From contig JASLOA010000034.1 in the NCBI GenBank assembly GCA_030745755.1, positions 10,071 through 74,070 of the forward strand: a DNA stretch of 64,000 nt. The letters run 5' to 3'. Shown piece by piece: positions 47,554 through 63,845 of this stretch (position 1 is its first letter; each line of letters starts with the position of its first letter). This DNA comes from Kiritimatiellia bacterium. Its GTDB lineage: Bacteria > Verrucomicrobiota > Kiritimatiellia > UBA8416 > JABMPJ01. A model generated the notes under the pieces. That model worked only from the letters and a program-made list of their open reading frames with translations. It made no database searches and was not told the DNA's origin. A program made the position numbers and the translations under genes.

Positions 47554-47984
47554 TCGGGCGATTGCTTTCGGAGAGCGAATCCGAGGAGCTAATTCGAGAA
47601 GGAGTGGGGGCTGTTCTCGATCTGACCTGCGAGTTCTCCGAATCTGCCGCCCTCCGTGAGTTGCAATACCGGAACTGCCCCATCCTGGACCTGACGGCGC
47701 CGACCCCATCGCAGCTCCGTGAGGCCGTTGATTTCATGCACGGCAGAATAGCGGAAGGCGACACTGTCTATGTCCATTGCAAGGTAGGATACTCTCGGAC
47801 GGCAACAGTGGTGGGTGCCTATCTCATGGCCGCCGGCCTGTGCGAGACGGTTGAGGATGCCTTGGGCGTTCTCCGTAGCGCACGTCCGTCCATTGTTGTG
47901 AGGCCGGAGGCCCTGAGAGCTTTGAGGCAGTTCCACGCGGAAACTCTGGAGCGCTCGCTTGCGATCCAGCGTAAGAAGAAGTAG
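47310..47984 (+). CDS. Dual-specificity/PTP-like phosphatase (CX5R: VHCKVGYSRT) with a hydrophobic N-terminus
   Basis: HCxxGxxR(S/T) P-loop; its ORF overlaps the hydrolase ORF in another frame. Confidence 0.65.
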   Translation: MGRQIRCGWPWSAPLLWPAAAMAIVVWGYLGGGPAIYAKQGGRLPLRTRLLLAPTRFAQHLSWLHYRRHCRPWDHVVDGVLIGRLLSESESEELIREGVGAVLDLTCEFSESAALRELQYRNCPILDLTAPTPSQLREAVDFMHGRIAEGDTVYVHCKVGYSRTATVVGAYLMAAGLCETVEDALGVLRSARPSIVVRPEALRALRQFHAETLERSLAIQRKKK

Positions 47985-48040
47985 CTTCTTCTGTGCGTCC
48001 ATGATGAGGCGGTTTCTGAAGTTAGCGAGAGGTACCAGGC

Positions 48041-49291
48041 ATGTGGTCTGAATTTGGCAAGCGAATGGCATCCCACTCGGGGATTGGGGAGTTGATGGAT
48101 GACCTGGGCCGTGCGATGGCCGGGCAGGCTGACATGCTGATGCTGGGCGGGGGCAACCCAGCCGGCATTCCTGCGGTGCAGGAGGTCTGGCGGCAGGATA
48201 TGGCTGCGCTGCTGGAGGATGCCGATCGGTTCGACCGCATCATGTGTCACTATGATACGCCACAAGGGAATACGCGCTTCCTCGCCGCGGTGGCCAAGCT
48301 CTTTCGCGATCAGTACGGTTGGGAGATTGGGCCGGAGAATGTGGCTGTCACCAACAGCAGTCAGAACGCCTATTTCATGCTCCTCAACATGCTGGCCGGC
48401 CAGTGTGAAGATGGATCACAGAAGAAGATCCTCCTCCCGGTGGCGCCCGAGTATATCGGCTATGCCGACCAGGGGCTGAGCGACGACATGTTCGTGGCCT
48501 GCAAACCCGTGATCACCGAGATCGGAGATCACGAGTTCAAGTACCACGTCGATTTCGACAACCTGGTCATCGGGGACGACATCGGCGCGGTTTGCGTATC
48601 CCGCCCCACGAACCCGACCGGCAACGTGCTCACGGATGAAGAAGTCCAGCGCCTGGCCGCCATGACGAAGGAGCGAGGTATTCCGCTGCTGATCGACAGT
48701 GCTTACGGCGCCCCGTTCCCAAATATCATTTTCGGTGACGTCACGCCCTTCTGGGATGAGCATGTCATCCTCACGCTGAGCCTGTCAAAACTCGGACTGC
48801 CCGGGACCCGAACCGGCGTCGTGATCGCGTCGGAAGAGGTGATCAAGGCGGTCGCATCCGCCAATGCCATCATCAGTCTGGCCAGCGGCAATATCGGACA
48901 GGCCCTCGTGGTCTCGCACATGGAGAGTGGGCGTATCCTTAAGCTCAGCCGCGAGATCGTACGTCCATTCTACGAGAAACGGTTACACCAGGCGCTCGGC
49001 TGGGTAGACGAGTCGTTCGACAAGAGCCTGCCCTGGCGCCTGCACACCTGCGAAGGTGCGCTGTTTCTCTGGCTGTGGTGTCGCGACATGCCGATCGACT
49101 CATGCGAGTTCTATGAGCGCCTGAAGAAGCGCGGCGTCCTAGTCGTGCCGGGCCATTACTTCTTTTACGGCCTCGGCGACGACTGGCCCCACCGACACGA
49201 GTGTATCCGCATCAACTACTCGCAGCCCGAAGCCACCGTCCGCGAAGGCCTCCGCATTATCGCGGAGGAGATGCGCACCGTATACGGATAA
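48041..49291 (+). CDS. PLP-dependent class I/II aminotransferase, valine-pyruvate transaminase (AvtA)-like
   Basis: 416 aa; ...SLSKLGLPGTRTG... PLP-lysine context. Confidence 0.7.
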   Translation: MWSEFGKRMASHSGIGELMDDLGRAMAGQADMLMLGGGNPAGIPAVQEVWRQDMAALLEDADRFDRIMCHYDTPQGNTRFLAAVAKLFRDQYGWEIGPENVAVTNSSQNAYFMLLNMLAGQCEDGSQKKILLPVAPEYIGYADQGLSDDMFVACKPVITEIGDHEFKYHVDFDNLVIGDDIGAVCVSRPTNPTGNVLTDEEVQRLAAMTKERGIPLLIDSAYGAPFPNIIFGDVTPFWDEHVILTLSLSKLGLPGTRTGVVIASEEVIKAVASANAIISLASGNIGQALVVSHMESGRILKLSREIVRPFYEKRLHQALGWVDESFDKSLPWRLHTCEGALFLWLWCRDMPIDSCEFYERLKKRGVLVVPGHYFFYGLGDDWPHRHECIRINYSQPEATVREGLRIIAEEMRTVYG

Positions 49292-49434: not shown

Positions 49435-50757
49435 ATGCAGAAGAAACAGACTCAGGAATCGTGCCCTCGTACGAGCGACAAACGATCAGACTCACAGCTT
49501 CAGCTTGAGGGCGTCTTCGTAGACCTTGATCCCCGGATTCAACGCGCCGTGGCGGCAGAAGGGTATGTCTCCCCGACGCCCATCCAGGAGCAGTGCATTC
49601 CGCATCTACTGGAAGGGCGGGACCTTCTCGGAAGCGCCCAGACGGGCACAGGGAAAACAGCCGCATTCTCGCTGCCGCTTCTCGAGCGCCTGGCCACGCG
49701 TTCGCGTCGGCCTGCGAAGGGAACGCCTCGCGCATTGATCATGGCTCCAACACGCGAGCTGGCAGCGCAGATCGGTGAGAGTATCCGCACCTACGGCCGG
49801 TTCCTGTCTATCAGTCACACGGTGGTCTTTGGCGGTGTGAATCAGTTCTCACAGGTTAAAGCGCTCAATCGTGGTGTGGATGTTCTTGTGGCAACGCCGG
49901 GCCGACTGCTCGACCTGATGGGACAGGGCCACATCCATCTTGAACAGGTCGAGGTCTTCATATTGGATGAGGTCGACCGTATGCTCGATATGGGGTTCCT
50001 GCCCGATATCAAGCGCGTGCTGCAGAAGGTCCCGACAGATCGCCAGACGCTTTTCTTCTCGGCCACCCTGCCGCCCAAGATGGTGACCCTGGCTCATAGC
50101 ATGGTGCGTGATCCGGTACGGGTCACAATCACTCCAGACAAACCGGCCGTGGAGAGCATTGATCAGAAGGTCCTTTTTGTCGGCAAGAAAAACAAGGACG
50201 CCTTACTGGTGTCGCTGCTGAAGGAACAAGGCGTCGGCAAGGTGCTTGTTTTCACACAGATGAAGCACGCCGCCAACAAGGTAACGGAGAAACTCGCTGC
50301 CGCGGGCATTCGCGGTGCGGCCATCCATGGCAACAAGAGTCAGAGTGCCCGGACGCGTGCGTTGGACGGTTTCAGAAGCGGTCGAATTCGTGTATTGGTA
50401 GCGACGGATGTCGCCGCACGTGGCCTGGACGTGGACGATATCACGCATGTGATCAACTATGATCTGCCGATGGAAGCGGAGACCTATGTACACCGCATCG
50501 GACGCACGGCACGTGCGGGGGCCGATGGTGATGCGATCTCGTTCTGTTGCGCCGAGGACCGGTCCTTCCTGCGCGACATTGAGAAACTCCTCGGTCAGCC
50601 GGTGCCGGCCCAGATGGAGCACGCCTATCACTGCAACGACTCCTTCCACTCCACGCTACCCGCGCCCAAGAACTTCGGCCGCGGCCGCAGCGGCCGCCCA
50701 AGAAATCGCAGCAACGCAGCGCGCCCCAGTCATCGACGTCCACGAAGGCGCCGCTAG
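49435..50757 (+). CDS. DEAD-box RNA helicase (RhlE-like) with an R-rich C-terminal tail
   Basis: AQTGTGKTAAF, DEVD, SAT, HRIGRTARAG motifs; true start may be internal to this ORF. Confidence 0.85.
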   Translation: MQKKQTQESCPRTSDKRSDSQLQLEGVFVDLDPRIQRAVAAEGYVSPTPIQEQCIPHLLEGRDLLGSAQTGTGKTAAFSLPLLERLATRSRRPAKGTPRALIMAPTRELAAQIGESIRTYGRFLSISHTVVFGGVNQFSQVKALNRGVDVLVATPGRLLDLMGQGHIHLEQVEVFILDEVDRMLDMGFLPDIKRVLQKVPTDRQTLFFSATLPPKMVTLAHSMVRDPVRVTITPDKPAVESIDQKVLFVGKKNKDALLVSLLKEQGVGKVLVFTQMKHAANKVTEKLAAAGIRGAAIHGNKSQSARTRALDGFRSGRIRVLVATDVAARGLDVDDITHVINYDLPMEAETYVHRIGRTARAGADGDAISFCCAEDRSFLRDIEKLLGQPVPAQMEHAYHCNDSFHSTLPAPKNFGRGRSGRPRNRSNAARPSHRRPRRRR

Positions 50758-50800: not shown

Positions 50801-50907
50801 ATTCCCAGGGGTTTCGCCCCTGGCTATGATGTTAGACCCCTTTGGGGTCCTTTCGGAACACCCCAAAGGGGTGTCCCATCATAGCCCAGCGAGAATCGCT
50901 GGGACCA
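50801..50907 (+). repeat. Family-2 multi-hairpin element, copy C (diverged, with compensatory changes)
   Basis: cccaggggtttcgcccctgg / ctatgatg ... gacccctttggggtc ... caccccaaaggggtg ... catcatag / cccagcgagaatcgctggg. Confidence 0.7.
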
Positions 50908-50984: not shown

Positions 50985-51221
50985 TCAGTAGTTGAACAGG
51001 TCGGCCAGGCTGTACGTCTGACCTGTGGCGGCGTTCAGGGCGTTCACGAGTTTGAACTGCACGTTGCGGGTCAGGCGGCGGCCTTTGCAGCCACGCGCCA
51101 CCATCTTGTGTGTGATCTGCTCAGTCGATGCCTCCACAAGATCGTGAGCCTTCAGTTCCTTCTCAAGCATGATCGTCGCGATCGGCTGCTCTCCCAGGTT
51201 GCGTTCGATATCTCTGTGCAT
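50985..51221 (-). CDS. Hypothetical 78-aa protein, intact copy of a paralogue pair that flanks the low-GC island
   Basis: MHRDIERNLGEQPIATIMLEKELKAHDLVE...LTRNVQFKLVNALNAATGQTYSLADLFNY; second diverged copy at 56229-56432. Confidence 0.5.
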   Translation of the reverse strand: MHRDIERNLGEQPIATIMLEKELKAHDLVEASTEQITHKMVARGCKGRRLTRNVQFKLVNALNAATGQTYSLADLFNY

Positions 51222-51419
51222 AGTCTCCTGTCAACATCATGAAGTGGATTGTTTTGAGCCGGAATGGTAGCAAATGCAGCCACCGCTGTCACGAGCCGTG
51301 ACGTGAAGAGTAAACAGGACTATCCCCACTTTTCAAGCCTTGGGAAGCGGATAGCCCTGTAAAGACTGGGATTTCGTGAGTGAGTAAGTGAAACAGGGCT
51401 TTGCCGTCAAGCCAGGCCT

Positions 51420-51500
51420 GAGATGCCTCGGCTTCGCTCGGCATGACCAGAAACCTTAGGAAACTGTCATCCCGAGCGGAGTCGAGGGATCTCCTATGCG
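51420..51500. repeat. Family-1 palindromic element
   Basis: agatgcctcggcttcgctcggcatgac...tgtcatcccgagcggagtcgagggatctc. Confidence 0.8.
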
Positions 51501-51855
51501 TCTCTGGCGTGAAAATTGGGGAATGTCCAGGAAGAGTAAAACAAGGAAGAGTAAAACATTGACTCAGAGCCCGTCTTTTGAGATCATTTCAATTAATCCA
51601 TTGGTTTACAGCCGGGTAAGCTGGCGTTCTTTCACATCATGGTGAGTGTTCCTTTCCGAAAAGGAAGGTGACAGCCGTCTTGCATTGGCTGCTACGCGGA
51701 CAACAGCTCCGCGCCAATGGCTTTGACATCCAGAAGGCACTGCTTCGGGCTTCCCGCGCCACGCGCGGCCAGTCGCTCTGAGGCAACCTCGATTATGAAC
51801 ATCGGGTAAATTGCCCTGAAATCGTTCCATAGCTTGGAACGATCGTGGAAAGGAA

Positions 51856-54800
51856 ATGACCATGAGAAGAACACGTGTAATCATCACTGTACTCGTTACG
51901 TTGCTCATCGCTGCAGGAACACCGGCTATGGCTGGGTTCTGTGTACACGATGGTGCAACCGTATCCCCTGACCCAAGCGGAACGGTGTATCCATGGACGC
52001 GTCTCGCAGTCTATTTCAACATGGGGTATGCGGATGATTACTCCCACATTGCCGAGGCGTACCTTCGATACACGTTTGATGACTCGACTTGGAATAACAC
52101 GAGTGGAGTCCTTGCAGATGCTGGCGAGAACGATGGTTCTGGAAATTCTAGCTGTGGCGAAGGAGACAACTGGAGGGTTAAGGGCCACATACCAGCGCCT
52201 GGGCGGAACTCTAGCAGCAGCAACTTCAAGTTTACGTACTATGGCCGAAACAGTTGGGATCCTGGGGATTGGAGATTTGAAGCGTGGGCAATCTCTGGCT
52301 ACGATGCCAACACAGGAAATGTGCAGTGGGATTCAGATGGAGCTTTTCACGACCCAAGCACACAGGTAGACGGTAAGAGCTACTATTACGTGACGCGCCA
52401 GGGGGAGGACGCTACGACGACGAGTTTCTATGATGACGAGGTAGCCGTTCTTCGCGCACGTGCCTTCAAGGAAGATGTCAGCGTCCTGACCCTGCGACAC
52501 ACCGGAAATTGGTCGGGTACGGCCATGACCTATCTCTCTGGTGCGGACCATGATAACGAGACTGACTTTGACGATTCCTACACGGTCGAGTTCTGGGAAG
52601 GAGCTCTGTCCGGTGACGATTGGTCGACCGCCATCGATAGCTACGGCGGTACGTTGTCATACAACATCAAGTACACGGACAACGGGTCGCCGAACGACGA
52701 AGACTATCTCAAGTCCGGAGGTATGGCAGACGGAGCTGGCGACGGCACCGATTTCACGATCACGGTGCAGGACGATGATACGACCGCGCCGCAGTTCGTG
52801 AAGGAGTCGGGCACTGTGGACACGTATGGTCCCATGCGGATACTCTTGGACACCGATGATCTGCGAGAGCGTGGGAACGGCCTGGGAACAAAAGAGTTCG
52901 ATGTCACGGATAATGACCTTGCCAGTTTGAGCAGCGACAACAAGCTTATATTCAAATTCGCCGCCTACGATGCGGAATCCGGTTTGCAGCGAAGCAGAAC
53001 TGGCGGCTCCAGCACGAACATGAGCTACGACATTGGAACGATGGCTGGATTCTTACAGGACCTTAACGGAACCTATGTTGCGAGCAGTTCATCGGCCGGC
53101 ACCAACTCGGCCACGGCGAAGTGGAGCGTGTTCGAACACACAAACGCTTTCCAAAAAGCCGAAATCACGCAGCTCTATACGAATATGCTGCAGGGGTCTC
53201 AGGGGAAGAACAAGATCCGGTGCTCGATCTATGACGCTGATCATGACCGCACCGGGGATGCGAGATATGACGAAGACGACCAAATGGGCTACCTCAATGT
53301 GCTCGATCAGGACAGCGCCGCCCCGACAATCGTGAAGATAGGATCACCCGAAGAGTCTGCTAAACGATACCTGCATGCCTCACTCGGGGGGACAGTGCTC
53401 TCCAGCTCCGGCCCAGCCAACACCAACAAGATCTACACGATCACGGATAGCGAACTCGCGGGCGTGAATGGCAGTGGCAATGAGTTGAAGCTGTATTTTG
53501 GCGCCATCGATGCGGGTTCCGGCCTCGCGCGTAGCGCCGGTGGGTCGGCCGACACCGATATGAACATCGATATCGGACCGGTCATTACGGACAACTACGC
53601 GCAGTATGACAGCGGCCTGAGCACCGATTTCGAGGGGACGAAGTCTGGCAAGGCGACTAATGCCTGGAAGTTCATCGATTTCACCGACTCCCAGATCGAG
53701 AACCTGTTGACCAATGCGGTTGGCGGTGTAGGCACCAATCTGGTAGCCGCCTCGTTGATCGATACGGATGACGATCGCGACGACGACCGCTCGATTCTGA
53801 CGAATCAGCAGTACGGATTCCTCGTGGTGAGCGACGACGATCCCGACGCGCCCACGCTTGAGGGGATGCGCGTAGACTACAACGGGAGTGAGCTTTCGAA
53901 TTCCGGAAGTGGCACGAATGTGATCTACACAGTCACCGACGCGCAGCTCTCGGACATTTCTGGCAAGACGCTGGCATTCAAGTTCGCGGTATGGGACGCC
54001 AGTGGGCTCTCCCGCAACAACGTCGATAACTTCCTGGAAGACATGAACTACGATATCGGCACCGATTACACGGGGGACCTGTCTGAGCTGGACAATATAA
54101 ATGTGACCTACTCGGCGGGTGACTCCGCCGCCGGTACCAACTCGGGAACGGCCGAGTACAGCGTGTTCATCCATAACGGCAACTTCGAGCGGCCGGAGAT
54201 CGCACACCTCGTTGCCGAGGACGACCAGGGAACAACCGGCAAGAACGCGATCCTGATCTCTGCTCCGGATAATGATCGCGACTACGGAACTGCTGATCAG
54301 GCTTGGCGTGCGAACGAGCGGATCGGTTTCCTGCAGGTCAACGACGATGATCCGGACGCGCCGGTGTTAGCTAACCCGACCTGGATAAATGATAAGCTGC
54401 GCATGGACATCACGGATGCCGGTAGCGGCCTTGGTTCCCCTATCTATATGGAATATGACGACAATGCGTTCATCTACGGTGCGCACAACACGGTGGGTAT
54501 GACAAATATCGGGGGCGATACCTACGAGATGTTGATCGCCGTCGATACGAACTACGTGCCAGGCAAGACGATCTACTACCGCGTTTTTGCCCCCGACGCT
54601 GACGACGAGTATGATGGCGATGCGGCACAGGGCGTCTACAGCAACACCACGCTATTCGGACTCGATGCCCCCGTTGCCAGCGCGGCTACGTCCACGAATG
54701 ACACCAGCTTCACCGCATCCTGGGCAGCCGTGACCGGGGCGGACGATGGGTATCGGCTGGATGTGAGTGTTTCGGCCGTATTTGAAGGTCCGATCGATAC

Positions 54801-55635
54801 GGACTTCGAAGATGAAGATCTGAGCGGGTGGACGCAAAGCACAGCGGATCGCTTCGCAGCGACCAACGATGGCGCTATCTCTGGTTCCATCTCTCTGCAC
54901 CACGTCTACGACGGATCTGCCGGGAAGGATCAGATCTCGTACTCAACCGATGGCCTCGATGTCACGGCTGCGCCGACAACATGGCAGTTCCAACTCAAGC
55001 ATGGGAACAATCCTTCTGCAAACAACTGCTGGGGTGTTATGCTTCTATCGGATGCTGCCGCGGCTGAAATACACCCGAGTGGTTCCGTGCATGGCTATGC
55101 TGCCGCCGTGAACTGGGGAACCACATCTGATGATCTTCTGAAGATCTACAAAGTCAATGGTGGCTCGGGTACAACGGTTCTGGACACGGGGTTGGACTGG
55201 CAGTCGACGATCACGTCGTCTGGAACGGCTGGCGTAGAAGTCCAGCGCACAGCAGCTGGATCGTGGTCCGTCAAAGTAGACACCGATGGCGGATTCGACA
55301 ACTTGGTCGCTCAGGGCGGATCGGCGGTCAACACCGACTTCACTAATGCCTCCCACTTCGGGGTTTACTACGGGTACACGGCTTCGGGTGATCAGAAACT
55401 GTGGATTGATGACATCAGCATTACGCAGCCGGGACTGTATGTCACGGGTTACTCCAACAAGACGGTTAGCGGCACAAGCGCGGCAGTTTCGGGCTTGTCA
55501 GCTGAGACGACCTACTACTATCGCCTGCGCGCTGCCAGCACGGATGGTGCGTTGAGCGATAACTCGAACACGATCACCGTGAACACCCTGGCTGATCAGG
55601 GGGCGAACGCCGGTTCGATGTTCCTGTTCAGGTAA
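51856..55635 (+). CDS. Large secreted repeat protein (1259 aa): signal peptide, four ~180-aa internal repeats, lectin/jelly-roll-like segment, FN3-like modules; low-GC gene
   Basis: Signal MTMRRTRVIITVLVTLLIAAGTPAMA; recurring DDD(P/T)xAP, F(K)FA(A/V)(Y/W)DA(E/S)SGL, DIGT, AGTNS(A/G)TA(K/E)(W/Y)SVF motifs; FN3-like TSFTASWAAVTGADDGYRL and ETTYYYRLRA. Confidence 0.8.
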   Translation: MTMRRTRVIITVLVTLLIAAGTPAMAGFCVHDGATVSPDPSGTVYPWTRLAVYFNMGYADDYSHIAEAYLRYTFDDSTWNNTSGVLADAGENDGSGNSSCGEGDNWRVKGHIPAPGRNSSSSNFKFTYYGRNSWDPGDWRFEAWAISGYDANTGNVQWDSDGAFHDPSTQVDGKSYYYVTRQGEDATTTSFYDDEVAVLRARAFKEDVSVLTLRHTGNWSGTAMTYLSGADHDNETDFDDSYTVEFWEGALSGDDWSTAIDSYGGTLSYNIKYTDNGSPNDEDYLKSGGMADGAGDGTDFTITVQDDDTTAPQFVKESGTVDTYGPMRILLDTDDLRERGNGLGTKEFDVTDNDLASLSSDNKLIFKFAAYDAESGLQRSRTGGSSTNMSYDIGTMAGFLQDLNGTYVASSSSAGTNSATAKWSVFEHTNAFQKAEITQLYTNMLQGSQGKNKIRCSIYDADHDRTGDARYDEDDQMGYLNVLDQDSAAPTIVKIGSPEESAKRYLHASLGGTVLSSSGPANTNKIYTITDSELAGVNGSGNELKLYFGAIDAGSGLARSAGGSADTDMNIDIGPVITDNYAQYDSGLSTDFEGTKSGKATNAWKFIDFTDSQIENLLTNAVGGVGTNLVAASLIDTDDDRDDDRSILTNQQYGFLVVSDDDPDAPTLEGMRVDYNGSELSNSGSGTNVIYTVTDAQLSDISGKTLAFKFAVWDASGLSRNNVDNFLEDMNYDIGTDYTGDLSELDNINVTYSAGDSAAGTNSGTAEYSVFIHNGNFERPEIAHLVAEDDQGTTGKNAILISAPDNDRDYGTADQAWRANERIGFLQVNDDDPDAPVLANPTWINDKLRMDITDAGSGLGSPIYMEYDDNAFIYGAHNTVGMTNIGGDTYEMLIAVDTNYVPGKTIYYRVFAPDADDEYDGDAAQGVYSNTTLFGLDAPVASAATSTNDTSFTASWAAVTGADDGYRLDVSVSAVFEGPIDTDFEDEDLSGWTQSTADRFAATNDGAISGSISLHHVYDGSAGKDQISYSTDGLDVTAAPTTWQFQLKHGNNPSANNCWGVMLLSDAAAAEIHPSGSVHGYAAAVNWGTTSDDLLKIYKVNGGSGTTVLDTGLDWQSTITSSGTAGVEVQRTAAGSWSVKVDTDGGFDNLVAQGGSAVNTDFTNASHFGVYYGYTASGDQKLWIDDISITQPGLYVTGYSNKTVSGTSAAVSGLSAETTYYYRLRAASTDGALSDNSNTITVNTLADQGANAGSMFLFR

Positions 55636-55649
55636 GAAGCTGTTTCCTG

Positions 55650-55676
55650 TCACGGCGGGGCAATGCCCCGCCGTGA
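55650..55676. terminator. Bidirectional GC hairpin between convergent genes
   Basis: tcacggcggggcaatgccccgccgtga. Confidence 0.6.
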
Positions 55677-55711
55677 ATGGAAAGCCAGATGACGGGTGTC
55701 AACGCTTCCTG

Positions 55712-56188
55712 CTATACTTTCGCCAAGATGACGAGGTAGTTCTTGCCGTACTTCTTGGCGCATTTCGGACAGGTCGTGTAGAAGAAGTAGAGCTTTTCCG
55801 CTTTCTTGCCCTGGCTCGATGCGTAGGTGTTCATCTCCTCGATCCACTGGCGCATGTTCTTGTAGGGACCTTCGAAGACTTTGGTCAGGAATGTCCCGGA
55901 GATGGTTGCCATGTTGGCGCCTGGCACATCGTCGCTCGCGGCGATGTAGACGTCGGCTCCCCATAGCGAGTTTTCGTCTGACAGAACCAGTGGTGGCTCT
56001 TCGAACGCTTCGACGGCTTTGATGGGCTCGACATTGCGTGTCATCACGGCGCCGAAGTTCAATGGGATGTGCAAGAAGCTCTTCACGCGATCCTTGACGA
56101 AGAGCTTCTCATCCCAATGCAGTTCCTTGCCTTCCCACGGCTCCGGCTCGAAGCGGGGACAGCATTCATCTGTGTCACATGTGCCCAT
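55712..56188 (-). CDS. Hypothetical protein with split four-Cys motif (N-terminal C-x4-CC, C-terminal CPKC)
   Basis: 158-aa ORF; MGTCDTDECCPRF ... YTTCPKCAKKYG. Confidence 0.55.
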   Translation of the reverse strand: MGTCDTDECCPRFEPEPWEGKELHWDEKLFVKDRVKSFLHIPLNFGAVMTRNVEPIKAVEAFEEPPLVLSDENSLWGADVYIAASDDVPGANMATISGTFLTKVFEGPYKNMRQWIEEMNTYASSQGKKAEKLYFFYTTCPKCAKKYGKNYLVILAKV

Positions 56189-56228
56189 GACTTTACCTCC
56201 CTGGTAGATGACCCGCAGGTCGCTTTCC

Positions 56229-56432
56229 TCTTATCAACAGTTGAATAGATCGGCCATGCTGTATGTCTGACCTGTTGCCGCATTCAGGGCGTTCACGATC
56301 GTGGTCTGCACATTACGGGTGAGGTGTCGGCCTTTGCAGGGCGGCCACGAGATCGTGAGCCTTCAGCTCCTTCTCACGAATGATCTGCGCGACCGGCTGT
56401 TCGCCAAGGTTGCGTTCGATGTCTCTATGCAC
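56229..56432 (-). pseudogene. Frameshifted paralogue of the 78-aa gene at 50985-51221 (~38-nt deletion; GTG start; N-terminal 39 codons then stop; C-terminus conserved in another frame)
   Basis: DNA alignment about 80% identical to copy 1 with one gap; translation VHRDIERNLGEQPVAQIIREKELKAHDLVAALQRPTPHP*, then CKGRHLTRNVQTTIVNALNAATGQTYSMADLFNC in a shifted frame. Confidence 0.5.
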
Positions 56433-56617
56433 ACCACTCTTTCGCCACGGAACGTGCTTCGTTCTTCCAATTCTCCTTGTTTGGGTTGCTGCATTGCGAC
56501 AGATTCAACAGGTGCAAGTGTGTCAAGGCCTCTACACGCCGAAAATGTCCATAGAGACGCGGCGTGGTGCGAAACGAGTGGGAGCGAGGGCCTGTCACGC
56601 ACATGCGGGGGGAACTG

Positions 56618-57835
56618 ATGAGTGTATCTGTCCATGCCGAGGAAGTCCGTGCGCTGATCGATATTGCACAGACGATTAATGCACACCTCTCGATTGATGC
56701 CGTGCTGGAGTCGGTCATGTCTGTGGCCAAGGAGGTGATGGCGGCCGAGGCCTCCTCGCTCTTTACGGTCGACGACGACACGGGCGAGCTTCTGTTCCAT
56801 GTCGCCCAGGGCGAGAAAGCTGAGCGGGTGAAACCCATTCGGATGCAGCCCGGACAAGGCATCGTGGGGCACGTGGTTGAAACCGGTGAGCCACTGATCG
56901 TCAACGATGTGGCGAACGATAGCCGCTGGTATGCCAAGCCTGACGAAGAGAGCGGCTTCAAAACGCGATCCATCCTGTGTGTGCCGCTGCGTACCCCTGA
57001 GCGTCTCCTGGGTGCCATAGAAATTCTCAACAAGATCGATGGACCCTTCACAGAGAGCGACCTTGCGCTCTGCCAGGCTGTGGCCGGGCAGGCCGCGGTG
57101 GCCATTGAGAACGCCATGCTGCACGAGCAGATGCTGGAGAAGGAACGCATGGCCGCCATCGGGGAGACCGTTGCCGGGCTGTCGCATTGCATTAAGAATA
57201 TCCTGCAGGGGGTCAAGACCGGCTCCTACCTCGTCAACTTGGGGATGAAGCGGGAAGATATGGACTTGGTAGGCAAGGGGTGGACAGCCGTCAGCAAGAA
57301 GAATGACTTCATGGAGGAGCTCGTGTGGGACCTCTTGACGTTGTCAAAACCCCGTGAGCCTCTCTACGAGGCGACGGACCTGAATGCGCTGTGCGAGGAT
57401 ATATGCGAGATCGGCTCCCAGCGCGAAGAGGGCGAACCGTCGGTCACTGTGGATTTCAAACCCGATCCGAACCTGCCGGAAGTCGAGGCAGATGGGAAGG
57501 GCATGCGGAGATGTCTGCTCAACCTGGTTACGAATGCGGTTGACGCCTGTACCGATGGCGGGACGGCCACGGTCGGGACGCTTGCGCCCGACGACGATGG
57601 CAAGGTGCGGGTGGTGGTGAGTGACACGGGCTGTGGCATGGACGAGGAAACCGTGAACAAACTCTTTACGGTGTTCTTCAGCACGAAAGGGTCCAAGGGC
57701 ACCGGCCTGGGACTCCCGGTAACAAAGAAGATCGTGGAGGAGCACGGCGGCCTGCTGGAAATCGCTTCCGAGAAGGGCAAAGGGACCACGTTCACGGTTG
57801 TCTTACCCCAGCTCCACGAAGACTGGCGCGCCTGA
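56618..57835 (+). CDS. GAF-domain sensor histidine kinase
   Basis: GAF; H-box AIGETVAGLSHCIKNIL; HATPase N/G1/G2 boxes LLNLVTNAVDA...DTGCGMD...GTGLGL. Confidence 0.8.
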   Translation: MSVSVHAEEVRALIDIAQTINAHLSIDAVLESVMSVAKEVMAAEASSLFTVDDDTGELLFHVAQGEKAERVKPIRMQPGQGIVGHVVETGEPLIVNDVANDSRWYAKPDEESGFKTRSILCVPLRTPERLLGAIEILNKIDGPFTESDLALCQAVAGQAAVAIENAMLHEQMLEKERMAAIGETVAGLSHCIKNILQGVKTGSYLVNLGMKREDMDLVGKGWTAVSKKNDFMEELVWDLLTLSKPREPLYEATDLNALCEDICEIGSQREEGEPSVTVDFKPDPNLPEVEADGKGMRRCLLNLVTNAVDACTDGGTATVGTLAPDDDGKVRVVVSDTGCGMDEETVNKLFTVFFSTKGSKGTGLGLPVTKKIVEEHGGLLEIASEKGKGTTFTVVLPQLHEDWRA

Positions 57836-57886
57836 ATGCCGAAGAGTCTGCTCTGAGGCGAGGCGCCTCGTGCCGACATGCCCGGA

Positions 57887-58381
57887 CTATGGCAGTACGC
57901 GTTCGACGAGGAGGCGTTCGCGAGGAGGGAGGGTGGTGTAGTCGCTGATGCGATAGCGGCACGTCTCAATGTCCGTCACGAGGAGCATATTGCTGGCGGT
58001 TACAGCCATGTGTTCTTTGCGTCCGCTGACGAAGAACGATACCGGGCCACGGTCAGTTTCTACCCGCCACTCATCCATCCCGTGCAGGGTGCGTATGTCT
58101 TCGATGGCCACAATCTCGGGCAGGAAATGCTGGTGCTGCAGGTCGTCAATAACGATCCGCCGCTGCTCGCCGGGGAGGTCCTTCAGCGCCCGAATGATCC
58201 CTATCTCGCTCTGCTCGCGGTCGCCGGGTTTTTGGACCGAAATATAGTGGTCGGGGTCGGTCAGGGGAAACAGACGACGGCAGACGACGGGTGCGACCTC
58301 GGTGCCGTCCGGTAGCGCCAGACGTAGCTCACCTTCGGGCGATCGGGAGAACGTCACGTTGTCCGGATGAAGCAGGTTCAT
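57887..58381 (-). CDS. DUF1854 family protein
   Basis: 164 aa; characteristic adjacency to, and 6-nt spacing from, the upstream ABC exporter. Confidence 0.65.
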   Translation of the reverse strand: MNLLHPDNVTFSRSPEGELRLALPDGTEVAPVVCRRLFPLTDPDHYISVQKPGDREQSEIGIIRALKDLPGEQRRIVIDDLQHQHFLPEIVAIEDIRTLHGMDEWRVETDRGPVSFFVSGRKEHMAVTASNMLLVTDIETCRYRISDYTTLPPRERLLVERVLP

Positions 58382-58386
58382 GGTGT

Positions 58387-60744
58387 CTACCCTTCCACGG
58401 CCACGATCGCGGAGAGCGCCTCCTGCGATTGGACGAGCTTGCTGAAGTGGCCCTCCGTCTGCATGAGCTCTGCGTGTGTCCCGGTTTCAATGATCTCACC
58501 CTCATCGATAACGACGAGACGGTTGCAGTTCCGGAGCGTGGCAAGGCGGTGGGCAATGGCGATCGTGGTGCGCCCCTTGGTAAGAGTGGCCAAAGCCTGC
58601 TGGATCTTCTCCTCGGTCTGTACGTCCACCGAAGACGTCGCTTCATCGAGGATCAGAATGCGCGGGTCGCGCAAAATGGCGCGTGCAATGGCAATGCGCT
58701 GTTTTTCGCCGCCCGAGAGATGGCTGCCTCGTTCACCCACGAGTGTGTCGTAGCCATCGGGCTTGCGGCTGATGAACTCGTGCGCGTGGGCGGCCGCTGC
58801 AGCCGCGATGACCTCCTCCTTGGTGGCATCCGGTTTGGCATAGGAGATGTTCTCCATGATCGTGCCACTGAACAAGAACGTCTCCTGGAGCACTACGCCG
58901 ATGTGCTGACGTAGATCATTCTGACGGATCCTGCACACGTCGATGTCGTCAACCCGGATCGCGCCCTTGTCCACGTCGTAGAGGCGGCTGATCAGGTTGA
59001 TCAAGGTGCTCTTGCCTGCGCCACTCTTGCCCACAAGACCGACCATTTCGTTGGCCGCGATATCGAGCGACAGCCCTTTGACCACCGGCTGGTGCTTGTT
59101 GTAGCCGAAGGTGATGTTGTCGAGGACGATGTGTCCGTCAATGGAGGGCATCTCAATGGCATCAGGATCATCCTGTATGTCGGGAGTGGTATCGATGATA
59201 TCAAAGACACGTTCTGCGGCCGCGAGGGCATTCGTGATCATCTGGGACATGCGCGTCAGCATAAAGACCGGCCGGTAGAACATCATCAGGTAGCCGGAGT
59301 AGGCGACCACGTCGCCGATTGACATGCCGCCGGGGGCGTCTGCGCCACGAAACACCAGACGACCGCCCACCAGCCAGACGAGGACGGCTCCCAACATGAT
59401 GAGAAAATGCATGAAAGGATGATAGATGCTCCAGCGCTTGACCAGGTCGATTCCCGAATCACGGTAGACCTCGCTCGTGCGGCGGAACTTGTTTACCTCC
59501 AGGTTTTCCTGGCCGAAGGCTTTGACGACCCGGATGCCCGAGAGCGAGTCGTTTACCAGGGCGGAGAGGCGAGACCGCCTGTGAAAGTAGCGGTGAAACA
59601 TGGCGCGTATGATCGGGATGATGAGCCGCAGGAAGGCAATGGTACCCACTATGGGGAGAATCACGAAGAGCGTGAGCCGCCAGCTCACGATGAAGAGAAG
59701 AATGCCGACACCGATGAGTGAGAGCAGCGACTCAAGCGAGATCGGGATGAAGTCCACCAACAGTCGCTGCAGCTCGGCCGTGTCCTGGTTGACACGGGCC
59801 ATGATCGACCCTGTATGGCGCTTATCAAAAAAGGTGAGCGATAGCTCCTGGAGGCGCGCATAGATGGCCGAACGTACATCGTAGACGGTCTTGAAGCCGA
59901 TGACACCGGAGAGCCGCTCCTGCCACCCGGCGAAGAAAGACTGCAGTGCATAGGCTACGAAGATCGCGCCCACGCACCAGAGATGCCAGTCCGCGTATGG
60001 GAATCCACCTGTGGTGGAATCTGCCCGAAAGACAAAATCGATGAACAGCTTGCTCATGTATGGCACCAGGAGGGCCGCCACGGTGGAGAGTGAGGAGATA
60101 ACGAAAATCCCCAGTATTTGCCAGGTGTAGGGGCGCGAGAATGAGAAGATGCGCAGGAGCGCCTTGTGGTGTTTCAGACAGTAGGGACAGGCCCGCATGT
60201 CCTCGGGGATCGCGCGTCCGCACTGTTCGCATCGCTTGCGGTCAGATGTCGTATGGTGCGCTTCAAGTCCCTCGCCCTCTTTCAGCGCACGGATCCCGTC
60301 CACGGTTTTGTGGAAATCGTCCGAACGCGCATCGGTATAGGCGATCAGGCGGTACGAGCCGGCCGCAGTGGTGACGAGCACGGCACCGGCTCCCACGCTG
60401 CCTTCCGCCTTGATGCTCTCGATATCCGCAAATGCCAGGTCGTGGCGTGGCTCGGTCGCCGCCTGTGGGAAGACGAGGACATGAGCGTCGGTCACCACCA
60501 GCCATTCTGTTCCGTACTCCGCGGGACCGGCGATGTCGGAACTGATCGCCAGAACAATGGATTCAGCCGGATGCAGCTCAAGTGCGGCATCTCTGATTGC
60601 GCCCGGTAGTGTGGCCTTCTCCACGCGGTAGATCCTTTCAGCAGATTGACTCGGCACTCTACTGGTGCATGAGCGAACGCTCAAGCAGGGAAATCCGGGG
60701 ACATATCCCAGTATTCTGGAGCAATGATGCAGGAATGCCCGCAA
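58387..60744 (-). CDS. ABC exporter, fused TMD-NBD, with a ~200-aa N-terminal cytoplasmic extension (PH-like region plus CxxC...CxxC zinc ribbon); true start possibly internal GTG near 60624
   Basis: Six-TM ABC_membrane domain; Walker A GKSGAGKST, LSGGEKQR, ILILDEATSSVD; N-terminal CEQCGRAIPEDMRACPYC. Confidence 0.85.
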   Translation of the reverse strand: MRAFLHHCSRILGYVPGFPCLSVRSCTSRVPSQSAERIYRVEKATLPGAIRDAALELHPAESIVLAISSDIAGPAEYGTEWLVVTDAHVLVFPQAATEPRHDLAFADIESIKAEGSVGAGAVLVTTAAGSYRLIAYTDARSDDFHKTVDGIRALKEGEGLEAHHTTSDRKRCEQCGRAIPEDMRACPYCLKHHKALLRIFSFSRPYTWQILGIFVISSLSTVAALLVPYMSKLFIDFVFRADSTTGGFPYADWHLWCVGAIFVAYALQSFFAGWQERLSGVIGFKTVYDVRSAIYARLQELSLTFFDKRHTGSIMARVNQDTAELQRLLVDFIPISLESLLSLIGVGILLFIVSWRLTLFVILPIVGTIAFLRLIIPIIRAMFHRYFHRRSRLSALVNDSLSGIRVVKAFGQENLEVNKFRRTSEVYRDSGIDLVKRWSIYHPFMHFLIMLGAVLVWLVGGRLVFRGADAPGGMSIGDVVAYSGYLMMFYRPVFMLTRMSQMITNALAAAERVFDIIDTTPDIQDDPDAIEMPSIDGHIVLDNITFGYNKHQPVVKGLSLDIAANEMVGLVGKSGAGKSTLINLISRLYDVDKGAIRVDDIDVCRIRQNDLRQHIGVVLQETFLFSGTIMENISYAKPDATKEEVIAAAAAAHAHEFISRKPDGYDTLVGERGSHLSGGEKQRIAIARAILRDPRILILDEATSSVDVQTEEKIQQALATLTKGRTTIAIAHRLATLRNCNRLVVIDEGEIIETGTHAELMQTEGHFSKLVQSQEALSAIVAVEG

Positions 60745-60800
60745 ACAGGGCTCGATCTCATTCTGGCAAGTGCGACCGGGTCATATGCGTATGGTCTGGC

Positions 60801-60920
60801 GGAGATGCCTCGGCTGCGCTCGGCATGACAGGAACCTTTTCTGAGAAATGTCATCCCGCCTGCCCGCCATAGCCCAGCGGGCGACGGCGGGAGCGAAGCC
60901 GAGGGATCTCCTATGCGACC
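60801..60920. repeat. Family-1 element with a nested ~35-nt palindromic insert sharing catagcccagcg with family 2
   Basis: ggagatgcctcggctgcgctcggcatgaca...tgtcatcccg[cctgcccgccatagcccagcgggcgacggcggg]agcgaagccgagggatctc. Confidence 0.7.
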
Positions 60921-61017
60921 TAAGGCTCGGAACGGGGGTGAGTTCTGAGGAAATCCGCGTTGTGCTGCCGGGGGTGTCGTCCTATACTCAGGGCCTCTTT
61001 GAGTTTGGGGGATTGTT

Positions 61018-62088: not shown

Positions 62089-62205
62089 AGAAGGGTTCAA
62101 GGTTCGCGGTTCAAGGCTCAAGGTTGGATGGCTCCTCAGCCGTGTTAGAAGCCCTGAACCTGGTGTGGTGTTTCGCAAAAAGGACTCTCTAAATCTGTAA
62201 GGTTC

Positions 62206-62278
62206 TGTCATTCCGAGCGAAGCGAGGAATCTCAGCCCATGTTGAGGCAGAGATCCCTCGACTTCGCTCGGGATGACA
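62206..62278. repeat. Family-1 palindromic element flanked by ggttcaagg / ccttgaa short repeats
   Basis: ctgtcattccgagcgaagcgaggaatctc...gagatccctcgacttcgctcgggatgaca. Confidence 0.8.
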
Positions 62279-62348
62279 CACGAGTTATACAAACGCAATT
62301 GTGAGATACGACACTAGAACTCATGAACCTTGAATCCTCAAACCTGAC

Positions 62349-63844: not shown

Positions 63845-63845
63845 C

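What the first reader, a model, noticed from the sequence alone, without database searches (positions are those of the whole stretch)
51240..56432. Low-GC ~5-kb island bounded by diverged paralogues of a 78-aa gene; contains a giant secreted repeat protein and a split-4-Cys protein
GC falls to about 50% between 51240 and about 55700. The island holds a family-1 element (51420), a 1259-aa signal-peptide protein with four novel ~180-aa repeats plus FN3/lectin-like modules, a GC-hairpin terminator, and a 158-aa protein with C-x4-CC…CPKC cysteines. The island is bracketed by two same-orientation copies of a small gene (50985-51221 intact; 56229-56432 frameshifted). The copies are about 80% identical, so this is not a fresh target duplication. 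Homologous recombination between the paralogues would excise or invert the island, a layout typical of a gene-cassette or replacement locus. A surface adhesin or cell-surface variability role is plausible.
Basis: partly seen in the sequence, partly recalled or inferred. Interest (0 to 1): 0.65.

Follow-up and report, generated by a model that had tools for sequence, protein, structure and literature searches.

The report
Paralogue-bracketed variable secreted-protein locus
In an uncultured Kiritimatiellia bacterium, two old copies of a small DNA-binding-protein gene (one now dead) bracket a chromosomal slot that carries a different large secreted protein gene in each related genome, so it looks like a swappable cell-surface locus, not a foreign mobile island.

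Summary
The sequence features are real, but two descriptions were off. GC is 55.5%, not about 50%, and third-codon-position GC is genome-typical. The 158-aa "split-4-Cys" protein is simply Pfam PF20603.

The window is contig JASLLN010000002.1 of MAG GCA_030747025.1 (Kiritimatiellia). The 78-aa gene belongs to an unnamed family conserved across the PVC group (Planctomycetota, Verrucomicrobiota, Chlamydiota and allies), with a predicted XRE-like helix-turn-helix fold.
- Copy 1 (50985-51221) is intact.
- Copy 2 (56234-56432) has a GTG start and a 38-nt frameshifting deletion that removes the most conserved helix. It still shows dN/dS 0.15 against copy 1, so it was functional for most of its history.

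The decisive evidence is comparative. A close relative (flanks 88-95% identical; contigs L107-L109) has both copies intact, in the same orientation, bracketing an unrelated 988-aa secreted protein that ends in the same ...MFLFR tail. Two further relatives show partial views with other cargo genes. No integrase, transposase or nearby tRNA is present.

My reading is a replacement-type variable locus for tail-tagged secreted proteins, probably swapped by homologous recombination in conserved flanks. The cassette idea is supported. Excision or inversion between the two copies is not: they are direct repeats and their longest identical run is 17 nt.

Novelty: a new variant of a known kind. Interest is moderate.

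The parts
50985..51221 (-). Intact copy 'B' of the 78-aa gene: a PVC-wide conserved small protein with a predicted XRE-like five-helix fold.
   Evidence: ORF. More than 2465 homologue clusters at 62-91% identity and no Pfam or NCBIfam match. AF2 pLDDT 89; the top Foldseek hits are all lambda-repressor-like HTH proteins. Orthologues: L107 copy B 93.6% aa, L102 91% aa.
51222..51300 (-). Conserved upstream (promoter/5' UTR) region of copy B.
   Evidence: Conserved with L102 (to window 51301) and with L107 (to window 51292).
51302..51552 (.). Lineage-specific insert in the intergenic region. It contains the roughly 110-nt palindromic repeat ('family-1' element, about 51420-51530).
   Evidence: Copies at 1534-1643, 25149, 26257, 42312, 60802 and 62198. 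The whole stretch is absent from the orthologous intergenic region of L102.
51553..51855 (+). Conserved non-coding leader upstream of the large gene. Core 19-mer ACATCCAGAAGGCACTGCT at 51726-51744; box GCAACCTCG at 51783-51791.
   Evidence: 86.6% identical to L102 over 51553-51828, with a core of about 70 nt at 100%; this is more conserved than the neighbouring CDS. The 19-mer also lies upstream of the 58%-identical homologues in L098 and L099. No Rfam match. Folding z-score -2.3 on the + strand.
51856..55635 (+). Cargo gene: 1259-aa Sec-signal protein. Layout: N-domain (27-308), three ~175-aa repeats plus one short module (309-945), an FN3 split by a 214-aa inserted domain (about 940-1245), and the C-terminal tail ...GSMFLFR.
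   Evidence: Only 3 distinct full-length homologues (47-58% identical; a fourth hit, P0121, is this genome's own protein) were found among 5.8 billion proteins. The individual modules recur in 1384 representative proteins. GC3 is 0.67.
55651..55675 (.). 11-12-bp GC-rich hairpin between the convergent cargo and hydrolase genes; a likely bidirectional terminator.
   Evidence: Read directly from the sequence. Not listed by the terminator scan because it lacks a T run.
55712..56188 (-). 158-aa PF20603 (Bact_hydrolase) gene, lying 45 nt downstream of the copy-A stop codon on the same strand.
   Evidence: Pfam E = 4.5e-67, full length. GC3 is 0.76. A 35-nt remnant of the same gene's 3' end lies downstream of copy B in L107.
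56234..56432 (-). Pseudogene copy 'A' of the 78-aa gene: GTG start, and a 38-nt deletion that removes helix 3 and shifts the frame.
   Evidence: dN/dS is 0.15 against copy B. It has substitutions at near-invariant positions: R49H, K57T, Y78C. It is the positional orthologue of the L103 and L107 copy-A genes.
56433..56465 (-). Remnant (last 33-36 nt) of an azoreductase-like (Flavodoxin_2) gene that is deleted in this genome.
   Evidence: Matches the 3' end of the intact 205-aa gene in L103. CCGTGGCGAAAGAGTGGT is identical, and blastn aligns L103 3342-3612 to window 56465-56233.
56464..56563 (.). Conserved intergenic promoter region on the copy-A side.
   Evidence: Conserved with L103 (within the 82% alignment of L103 1362-2770) and with L107 (85% for window 56464-56550), even though L107 lacks the histidine-kinase gene.
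56564..57835 (+). GAF-histidine kinase gene flanking the locus; its presence varies among relatives.
   Evidence: Pfam GAF + HATPase_c. 86% aa identical in L103. Absent from L107.

Best explanation
The roughly 5-kb stretch is the variable core of a replacement-type chromosomal locus in one Kiritimatiellia lineage.

Its borders are two ancient, same-orientation paralogues of a small XRE-like DNA-binding-protein gene that is conserved across the PVC group. Copy A sits on the ABC/DUF1854/histidine-kinase side. Copy B sits on the DEAD-helicase side.

Between the copies, each genome examined carries a different gene for a large Sec-exported protein, transcribed towards copy A. Where the C-terminus is seen, it ends in a short tail, ...[MIV]-F-x-F-[R/K].
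- In this genome the cargo is a 1259-aa repeat/FN3 protein plus a PF20603 gene.
- Here the redundant copy A, and the azoreductase-like gene that once preceded it, have decayed.

Inferred steps:
- Cargo is exchanged by homologous recombination in the conserved flanks with DNA from related lineages, as proposed for replacement flexible genomic islands that encode exposed structures. It is not moved by a mobile element, and not by recombination between the two copies.
- The cargo protein is extracellular or surface-attached.
- Copy B, which is divergently transcribed across a conserved 276-nt leader, may regulate the cargo gene.
For: Shown:
- The paralogues and the nature of the pseudogene.
- Copy A is the positional orthologue of the copy next to the kinase in L103, and an azoreductase-gene remnant survives in the window.
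- In L107, L108 and L109, which show one and the same arrangement (L107 and L108 are 100% identical over 8.3 kb; ABC 93% aa to the window), intact copy A, then a 988-aa LTD/fn3 secreted protein on the opposite strand ending TGTMFLFR, then genes of 160 and 35 aa, then intact copy B (93.6% aa to copy 1).
- Window 51293-56233 and L107 10238-14414 share no DNA similarity, while the left flank is 88-95% identical.
- Identity falls from about 92% to 86% and then 74-80% at the copy-A border, as described for recombination-exchanged replacement islands (PMC4033161).
- L102 has the same leader and copy B, but an unrelated secreted gene.
- L103 has a different protein ending ...TVFFR that converges on copy A.
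- More distant genomes have a single copy with no such cargo.
- There is no integrase or transposase, and no nearby tRNA. GC3 is native.
- The tail recurs in six other large proteins of other architectures.
Against: - Only one other organism (L107/L108/L109) shows both copies with the cargo in one contig, and its contigs end about 260 nt beyond copy B. The right flank is therefore not verified there.
- L102 and L103 give only partial views.
- The whole neighbourhood is unstable. The kinase is present or absent, ABC/DUF1854 are present or absent, and an azoreductase gene, an adenine-glycosylase fragment or nothing lies upstream of copy A. L105 loses synteny exactly at the DEAD stop codon. Cargo differences could therefore reflect general rearrangement, not a dedicated slot.
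- The 58%-identical homologues of the cargo lie elsewhere, beside a type IV pilus-like cluster, with no 78-aa gene nearby.
- No recombination breakpoints were demonstrated.
- The lower identity at copy A could simply reflect faster evolution of that copy.
- Surface location and any tail function are untested.
Confidence: 0.6

Rival explanations
1. Incidental rearrangement junction. Two originally separate loci, each with its own copy of the 78-aa gene, were brought together by ordinary rearrangement in an unstable region. One locus was kinase-azoreductase-copy A. The other was secreted gene-leader-copy B. The bracketing has no functional or mechanistic meaning, and copy A is simply decaying as a redundant duplicate.
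For: Many independent indels and synteny breaks occur around the locus in relatives. A hydrolase remnant follows copy B in L107, whereas the intact hydrolase follows copy A in the window, which shows repeated reshuffling. Cargo homologues lie elsewhere in more distant genomes.
Against: The same A-cargo-B layout, with the same orientations, occurs in a second species with different cargo. Homology between the two genomes stops at the two paralogues. Both cargo proteins share the ...MFLFR tail although they are otherwise unrelated.
Confidence: 0.25
2. Regulator-target module. The small XRE-like protein (copy B) is the transcriptional regulator of the divergently transcribed secreted-protein gene and acts on the conserved leader. 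The locus is defined by this regulatory pairing, not by recombination. This reading is compatible with the main explanation.
For: Copy B and the cargo gene are divergent, as are copy B and the neighbouring secreted gene in L102. A 276-nt leader between copy B and the neighbouring secreted gene is more conserved than the coding sequence. The protein has a predicted HTH fold.
Against: The 19-mer leader core is also found upstream of cargo homologues in L098 and L099, where no 78-aa gene is nearby. It is absent from the L107 locus. In 80 other genomes the family sits in unrelated contexts: a nitroreductase-like gene lies upstream in 13 and a rhodanese-like gene downstream in 11. Wobble pairs and the folding z-score hint at an RNA-level leader on the cargo strand.
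Confidence: 0.3
3. Classical horizontally acquired genomic island: foreign DNA inserted by a mobile element, with the duplicated 78-aa gene as the remnant of the integration.
For: Overall GC is 55.5% against 60.3% +/- 1.0%. The full-length cargo architecture has very few homologues. The segment is absent from L105 next to the DEAD helicase.
Against: GC3 is native at 0.67 and 0.76. There is no integrase, transposase or phage gene, and the only tRNA is 28 kb away. The copies are 82.5% identical with dN/dS 0.15, and each has a positional orthologue in relatives, so they predate this genome.
Confidence: 0.05
4. Programmed excision, inversion or phase variation of the cargo by recombination between the two copies.
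For: Two homologous sequences of about 200 nt flank the segment.
Against: They are direct repeats, so inversion is impossible. Their longest identical run is 17 nt at 82.5% identity. No recombinase gene is present. Independently listed assembly records give one identical arrangement.
Confidence: 0.03

Closest known systems
Replacement flexible genomic islands of aquatic prokaryotes (Lopez-Perez, Martin-Cuadrado and Rodriguez-Valera 2014, PMC4033161). Classic examples from my own knowledge are O-antigen clusters between galF and gnd, and pneumococcal cps between dexB and aliA.
   Same: The chromosomal position is the same in related genomes, with conserved flanks. The cargo differs and is non-homologous, yet is apparently of the same class (exported or exposed proteins). 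There are no mobility genes. Divergence rises at one border.
   Different: The cargo here is one large secreted protein gene, not a glycan-synthesis cluster. The immediate borders are two paralogues of one small regulator-like gene. The comparison is between species-level relatives in metagenome assemblies, not between strains. Recombination breakpoints were not demonstrated.
XRE / Cro-C1 (lambda-repressor-like) helix-turn-helix regulators, for example ClgR (3f52), C.AhdI (1y7y) and DdrO (6rnx).
   Same: The predicted five-helix bundle is of the same topology. The top 40 Foldseek hits are nearly all from this fold, with TM-scores of 0.5-0.63.
   Different: There is no sequence match to Pfam HTH_3 or to any NCBIfam or PDB sequence. 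Foldseek E-values are 0.2 or higher. The family is unusually conserved, at 62-77% identity across PVC phyla.
Type IV pilus-like gene cluster of Akkermansia muciniphila, Amuc_1098-Amuc_1102 (PMC10688800).
   Same: In L098 and L099 the 58%-identical homologues of the cargo protein lie divergently next to a cluster encoding an N_methyl pilin-like protein, Amuc_1102, PilM, Amuc_1100 and a secretin. They share the 19-nt upstream core with the window.
   Different: None of the L099 cluster proteins has a match in this 64-kb window. The link is by neighbourhood in other genomes only.
C-terminal sorting signals of secreted proteins: the T9SS C-terminal domain (Por_Secre_tail, CHU_C) and PEP-CTERM.
   Same: A conserved extreme C-terminus is shared by otherwise unrelated large exported proteins. 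The 214-aa inserted domain of the cargo is homologous to N-terminal domains of T9SS cargo proteins.
   Different: The tail is only 5-8 residues long (...[GS][AST][MIV]FxF[RK]). It has no transmembrane segment, no PEP motif and no ~80-aa C-terminal domain. No Pfam or NCBIfam sorting model matches it.
Pfam PF20603 (Bact_hydrolase).
   Same: The 158-aa protein matches the model end to end, E = 4.5e-67.
   Different: Nothing distinguishes it from the family. No solved structure or paper was found.

Membership tests
Replacement flexible genomic island | Same chromosomal position, with conserved syntenic flanks, in related genomes. | tested here: met
   The left flank (TGT, chorismate synthase, ABC, DUF1854, promoter region) is 85-95% nt identical between the window and L107. 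Both paralogues are at the borders. The right flank beyond copy B is not covered by the relative's contig.
Replacement flexible genomic island | Different, non-homologous genes of similar function in the same slot. | tested here: met
   The window carries a 1259-aa repeat/FN3 protein plus PF20603. L107 carries a 988-aa LTD/fn3 protein plus genes of 160 and 35 aa. There is no DNA similarity, but both cargo proteins have a signal peptide and the ...MFLFR tail. L102 has a third, unrelated secreted gene. That the function is similar is inferred.
Replacement flexible genomic island | Exchange by homologous recombination, seen as peaks of mostly synonymous substitutions at the borders. | tested here: inconclusive
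   Identity drops from about 92% to 74-80% at copy A, and the copy A/copy B differences are mostly synonymous, with dN/dS 0.15. Faster evolution or decay of copy A explains this equally well.
Classical horizontally acquired genomic island | Atypical codon usage or composition. | tested here: not met
   GC3 is 0.67 and 0.76, against 0.716 +/- 0.069. The lower total GC is due to codon positions 1 and 2 and to the intergenic DNA.
Classical horizontally acquired genomic island | Integrase or transposase, a tRNA or att site, and target-site duplication. | tested here: not met
   No such ORFs or Pfam hits lie in 49-58.5 kb. The only tRNA is at 23092-23165. The flanking repeats are diverged whole genes.
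Invertible or excisable phase-variation cassette | Inverted, or near-identical direct, repeats plus a site-specific recombinase. | tested here: not met
   The repeats are direct, 82.5% identical, and share at most a 17-nt identical run. No recombinase is present.
XRE / HTH_3 (PF01381) transcription regulators | Sequence match to the family profile. | tested here: not met
   No Pfam, NCBIfam or PDB-sequence match at meaningful E-values.
XRE / HTH_3 (PF01381) transcription regulators | Five-helix lambda-repressor-like fold. | tested here: inconclusive
   The AF2 model has pLDDT 89 and helices at 13-20, 25-31, 38-46, 52-66 and 72-75. The top Foldseek hits are ClgR, C.BclI, DdrO and C.AhdI, with TM 0.5-0.63 and probability up to 0.96, but E is 0.2 or higher. 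DNA binding was not tested.
Pfam PF20603 Bact_hydrolase | Full-length profile match above the gathering threshold. | tested here: met
   225 bits against a cut-off of 27; residues 5-158 match profile positions 6-160 of 160.
Fibronectin type III domain (PF00041) | Profile match above the gathering threshold. | tested here: met
   The intact protein gives only the C-terminal half, at 20.9-23.4 bits. Joining residues about 938-979 to about 1193-1247 gives 33 bits over profile positions 3-82 of 84. This means an FN3 split by a 214-aa insert.
T9SS or PEP-CTERM sorted proteins | Por_Secre_tail or CHU_C C-terminal domain, or a PEP motif plus transmembrane segment plus basic tail. | tested here: not met
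   No such Pfam or NCBIfam hit in the cargo protein. The C-terminus is ...ADQGANAGSMFLFR.
Type IV pilus-associated protein | Encoded in or next to a pilus gene cluster; pilin-like N-terminus, or demonstrated association with a pilus. | tested here: not met
   Adjacency is seen only for homologues in L098 and L099. None of the L099 cluster proteins matches the window. The N-terminus is a Sec signal, not a prepilin signal. Physical association is not testable here.

The most novel reading that the evidence does not exclude
The locus may be a dedicated, paralogue-bracketed exchange slot for a so far undescribed class of surface proteins. These proteins would be marked by a very short C-terminal signal, ...[GS][AST][MIV]-F-x-F-[R/K]-COOH. 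That tail would be a new sorting or anchoring tag in Kiritimatiellia and allies, possibly read by the type IV pilus-like or secretin machinery next to which the cargo's homologues are encoded. The two XRE-like paralogues would serve both as recombination arms and as regulators acting through the conserved leader.
Probability: 0.2. Interest if true: 0.75.

Novelty: new variant of a known kind. Interest (0 to 1): 0.5.

Why it matters
Kiritimatiellia and most other lineages of the PVC group (Planctomycetota, Verrucomicrobiota, Chlamydiota and allies) are uncultured, and how they vary and sort their surface proteins is essentially unknown.

If the reading is right, this locus offers four things:
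- A defined hot spot where cell-surface diversity is generated, probably under phage or grazing pressure as argued for replacement islands. It could be tracked in metagenomes.
- A candidate new C-terminal tag shared by unrelated large exported proteins.
- A first functional foothold for a very conserved but unnamed 78-aa HTH family present across PVC phyla.
- A conserved leader element that links these cargo genes to the type IV pilus-like cluster known from Akkermansia.

If the rival (incidental rearrangement) is right, the region is ordinary genome flux around a decaying duplicate.

Tried and rejected
- **AlphaFold2 of the full-length homologue P0124 with a 4-sequence alignment.** Mean pLDDT was 29, which is unusable. 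No fold assignment was possible for the N-domain, the repeats or the inserted domain.
- **First exhaustive profile search.** It failed because the profile had more than 1200 positions. It was re-run with residues 60-1259 as a single sequence.
- **Rfam at gathering and E-value thresholds.** Nothing was found for the intergenic leader. RNAalifold on four sequences gave only an invariant stem with no covariation. Sigma-54 or sigma-70 readings of the 19-mer did not fit by eye (inference).
- **Pfam, NCBIfam and PDB sequence searches of each cargo segment and of the 78-aa protein.** No informative hits apart from FN3.
- **Exact-sequence cluster look-up of the L102 and L103 partial proteins.** They are not in the collection.
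- **Other ORFs with the C-terminal tail in the window.** No credible one apart from the cargo gene.
- **Conserved partner of the 78-aa gene in 80 genomes.** No universal neighbour, and no hydrolase or cargo homologue nearby.
- **Hybrid test of copy 2.** I asked whether copy 2 has a copy-A 5' half and a copy-B 3' half, using identity by halves. There was no clear signal.
- **DEAD-helicase homologue contexts P0128/L110 and P0015/L113.** These are unrelated contexts with a single copy of the 78-aa gene or none.

Full report
**Source and layout**

The window is 100% identical to contig JASLLN010000002.1 of MAG GCA_030747025.1 and to a contig of JGI metagenome 3300035204. NCBI names the organism "Kiritimatiellia bacterium".

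On the + strand the region reads as follows:
- DEAD-box helicase, 49435-50757 (+)
- 78-aa gene copy 1, 50985-51221 (-)
- a 634-nt intergenic region
- a 1259-aa ORF, 51856-55635 (+)
- a GC hairpin, 55651-55675
- a 158-aa gene, 55712-56188 (-)
- a truncated second copy of the 78-aa gene, 56234-56432 (-)
- a GAF-histidine kinase, 56564-57835 (+)

**Checking the observation: composition**

- The interval 51240-55700 has 55.5% GC. That is lower than any of 1012 same-size windows elsewhere in the 64 kb (mean 60.3%, sd 1.0). It is not "about 50%": only 51100-52300 reaches 50-54%.
- Third-position GC is native: 0.67 for the large gene and 0.76 for the 158-aa gene, against 0.716 +/- 0.069 for 46 ORF proxies.
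- The dip sits in codon positions 1 and 2 (the protein is rich in D, G, A, T, S and N) and in the long intergenic region.

**Checking the observation: the two copies**

- They align from start codon to stop codon and nowhere beyond.
- Copy 2 starts with GTG and lacks 38 nt, which shifts the frame.
- Identity is 82.5% over the 63 shared codons. The longest identical run is 17 nt.
- The same pseudogene structure appears in an independently listed Logan assembly record (L104, 100% over 9343 nt).

**Checking the observation: other features**

- The "family-1 element" is a palindromic repeat of about 110 nt with at least six other copies in the window.
- The 158-aa "split-4-Cys" protein is a full-length member of PF20603 (E = 4.5e-67).

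**The 78-aa gene**

- It has more than 2465 homologue clusters. These are 62-77% identical across Kiritimatiellia, Verrucomicrobiota, Planctomycetota, Lentisphaerota, Omnitrophota, Auribacterota and Chlamydiota. It matches no Pfam or NCBIfam model and no PDB sequence.
- AlphaFold2 with a 40-sequence alignment gives pLDDT 89 and five helices. The best Foldseek hits are all lambda-repressor/XRE-type HTH proteins (ClgR, C.BclI, DdrO, C.AhdI) at TM 0.5-0.63, but with E of 0.2 or higher. It therefore works like a small XRE-type DNA binder, but membership is not established.
- The 38-nt deletion in copy 2 removes the nearly invariant STEQITHKMV.R segment (helix 3). Copy 2 also carries substitutions at near-invariant positions: R49H, K57T, Y78C.
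- dN/dS between the copies is 0.15 at dS 0.67. Copy 2 was therefore under purifying selection for most of its divergence and died late.
- In 80 other genomes the gene occurs once per 20-kb locus in unrelated contexts. A nitroreductase-like gene lies just upstream in 13, and a rhodanese-like gene just downstream in 11.

**The large protein**

- Its homologues align from an N-terminal signal peptide, so the 1259-aa reading is right. The database calls of 1104, 1081 and 1235 aa are truncated.
- It has an N-domain (27-308), three repeats of about 175 aa (309-486, 487-662, 663-832) and a shorter related module (833-945).
- It also has an FN3 domain split by a 214-aa insert. The joined halves score 33 bits over PF00041 profile positions 3-82 of 84.
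- Its extreme C-terminus, GS[MIV]F.[FY]R, is conserved in all homologues.
- The word-indexed search of 5.8 billion proteins found P0121, which is 100% identical to the window protein and comes from an assembly record (L104) 100% identical to the window, three distinct full-length homologues (47-58% identical) and one partial hit.
- The exhaustive search found 1384 representative proteins that share individual modules:
  - the repeat, in giant proteins of 2000-7600 aa, with up to 11 matched stretches per protein;
  - the inserted domain, at the N-termini of T9SS-type cargo proteins carrying LTD, Big_5 and CHU_C or Por_Secre_tail;
  - FN3 arrays.
- No Pfam model covers the N-domain, the repeat or the insert.
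- A structure prediction with only four sequences failed, at pLDDT 29.

**Comparative evidence, the decisive part**

L107, L108 and L109 show one and the same arrangement; L107 and L108 are 100% identical over 8.3 kb and L109 is a partial view of the same layout. Their ABC transporter is 93% aa identical to the window's, and the left flank is 88-95% nt identical to window 57869-64000. Their order is:
- chorismate synthase, ABC, DUF1854
- the same promoter region as window 56464-56550 (85% identical)
- a fragment of an adenine-glycosylase gene
- an intact copy A
- a 988-aa signal-peptide protein on the opposite strand, with LTD and fn3 domains, ending TGTMFLFR
- ORFs of 160 and 35 aa
- an intact copy B (93.6% aa identical to window copy 1)

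Window 51293-56233 and L107 10238-14414 share no DNA similarity. Homology between the two genomes therefore stops at the two paralogues. Identity falls from about 92% in the flank to 86% and then 74-80% at copy A.

L103 is GCA_041591675.1, with a kinase 86% aa identical to the window's.
- Its order is kinase, then an intact azoreductase-like gene, then copy A, then a convergent gene whose product ends GSGTTVFFR.
- The window keeps the last 33-36 nt of that azoreductase-like gene directly upstream of copy 2.
- Copy 2 is therefore the positional orthologue of copy A, sitting in a decaying operon.

L102 has a copy B that is 91% aa identical.
- It shares the 276-nt leader (window 51553-51828) at 86.6% identity, with a core of about 70 nt at 100%.
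- It lacks the repeat-bearing stretch 51302-51552.
- The gene behind the leader is an unrelated signal-peptide protein.

Other relatives:
- L105 is 91% nt identical to the window up to the DEAD stop codon. It loses synteny exactly there, inside repeat elements.
- A more distant Kiritimatiellia genome (P0015) has a single copy among housekeeping genes.

The nt identity matrix groups window copy 1 with the L107 and L102 B copies (0.85-0.90). It groups window copy 2 best with the L103 A copy (0.83). The A copies evolve faster.

**Interpretation**

Shown:
- The duplication predates these species.
- Both copies mark the borders of a segment whose content differs between related genomes.
- The cargo is each time a large exported protein. 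Two unrelated cargo proteins share the ...MFLFR end.
- Nothing in the segment looks mobile or compositionally foreign.

This fits the definition of replacement flexible genomic islands: the same place, similar function, different genes, typically exposed structures, exchanged by homologous recombination with divergence peaks at the borders (PMC4033161).

Inferred:
- The recombination mechanism.
- Surface exposure of the cargo.
- A regulatory role of copy B across the leader.

The copies are direct repeats, their longest identical run is 17 nt, there is no recombinase, and only one arrangement is seen in all assemblies.

The main rival is that this is just an unstable junction.
- In its favour, the kinase, ABC/DUF1854, the azoreductase gene and the hydrolase all come and go. 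A 35-nt hydrolase remnant follows copy B in L107, whereas the intact gene follows copy A here.
- This rival would become the preferred reading if further genomes fail to show the A-cargo-B layout.

**Link to pili**

- The 58%-identical homologues of the cargo (L098, L099) are divergent neighbours of a cluster encoding an N_methyl pilin-like protein, Amuc_1102, PilM, Amuc_1100 and a secretin.
- This is the type IV pilus-like cluster described in Akkermansia (PMC10688800).
- These homologues carry the same 19-nt core ACATCCAGAAGGCA[A/C]TGCT, and in three of the four sequences the GCAACCTCG box, upstream.
- None of the L099 cluster proteins has a match in the window.
- The leader matches no Rfam family. 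It folds somewhat better on the cargo strand (z = -2.3 against -1.75).

**Verdict**

The "cassette locus" idea is supported by comparison with relatives, but the proposed recombination mechanism and the "low-GC island" emphasis are not.

This is a new variant of a known kind: a replacement-type variable surface-protein locus, here bracketed by paralogous XRE-like genes. Three leads are worth following:
- the ...FxF[R/K] tail;
- the conserved leader;
- the unnamed PVC-wide 78-aa family.

Noticed in passing
window 51553-51855 (+); L102 744-1019; L098 9873; L099 9957: A 276-nt non-coding leader upstream of the cargo gene is more conserved than the neighbouring coding sequence: 86.6% identity overall, with about 70 nt at 100%. 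Its 19-nt core ACATCCAGAAGGCA[A/C]TGCT also precedes the distant homologues next to pilus-like clusters, and the GCAACCTCG box follows it in three of the four sequences. It also precedes an unrelated secreted gene in L102. There is no Rfam match, and whether it acts as a promoter or an RNA is unresolved.
   Followed up: partly
window 55612-55635 (C-terminus of the cargo protein); L107 10363-10390; L103 3613-3640; P0252, P0253, P0347, P0354, P0361, P0379: Otherwise unrelated large exported proteins end in ...[GS][AST][MIV]-F-x-F-[R/K]-COOH (MFLFR, IFQFR, VFKFK and similar). The L103 protein ends in the similar VFFR. No known sorting-signal model matches. This may be an undescribed C-terminal tag.
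   Followed up: partly
window 50985-51221 and loci L003-L082: The 78-aa protein family is 62-77% identical across PVC phyla and has no Pfam or NCBIfam model. In 13 of 80 genomes it lies directly downstream of a nitroreductase-like gene, and in L103 downstream of an azoreductase-like gene. This hints at a link to flavin oxidoreductases.
   Followed up: partly
L107 14756-14790 versus window 55716-55750: In the relative, a 35-nt remnant of the PF20603 gene's 3' end (encoding GKNYVVILAKV*) lies about 40 nt downstream of copy B. In the window the intact gene lies downstream of copy A. This suggests an ancestral small-gene-hydrolase pair, or past exchange between the two copies.
   Followed up: partly
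window 50809-50901, 36136-36236, 37355-37406; L105 11080-11336; L107 14899-14979: A second family of short palindromic repeats lies between the DEAD helicase and copy B. The contigs of the relative end, or change synteny, inside copies of it. The L105 breakpoint may therefore be an assembly ambiguity at a repeat.
   Followed up: no
window 47330-49280 versus L105 8395-9547: The phosphatase-like and aminotransferase genes upstream of the DEAD helicase are replaced by a thioredoxin-like gene in the 91%-identical relative, which keeps only a ~54-nt match to the aminotransferase gene. This is another variable spot only 2 kb from the locus.
   Followed up: no
window 56564-57835 and 57887-60744: The GAF-histidine kinase is present in the window and L103 but absent from L107. 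ABC and DUF1854 are present in the window and L107 but absent from L103.
   Followed up: partly
window 51856-55635: Public gene calls truncate this gene: 1104 aa in the NCBI MAG, 1081 aa in JGI and 1235 aa in Logan. The signal peptide is lost in each.
   Followed up: yes
P0246, P0247, P0248, P0250, P0251, P0263 (remote homologues of the repeat): The giant proteins (4600-7600 aa) that carry the ~175-aa repeat share a different conserved C-terminus, ...W.WTN[KR][IL]LY.PP.R...P, and almost no Pfam domains.
   Followed up: no
window 40144-40315 (+) and 23092-23165 (-): A 6S RNA gene (66.6 bits) and a tRNA-Gly(TCC) gene are the only Rfam or ARAGORN hits in the window.
   Followed up: no
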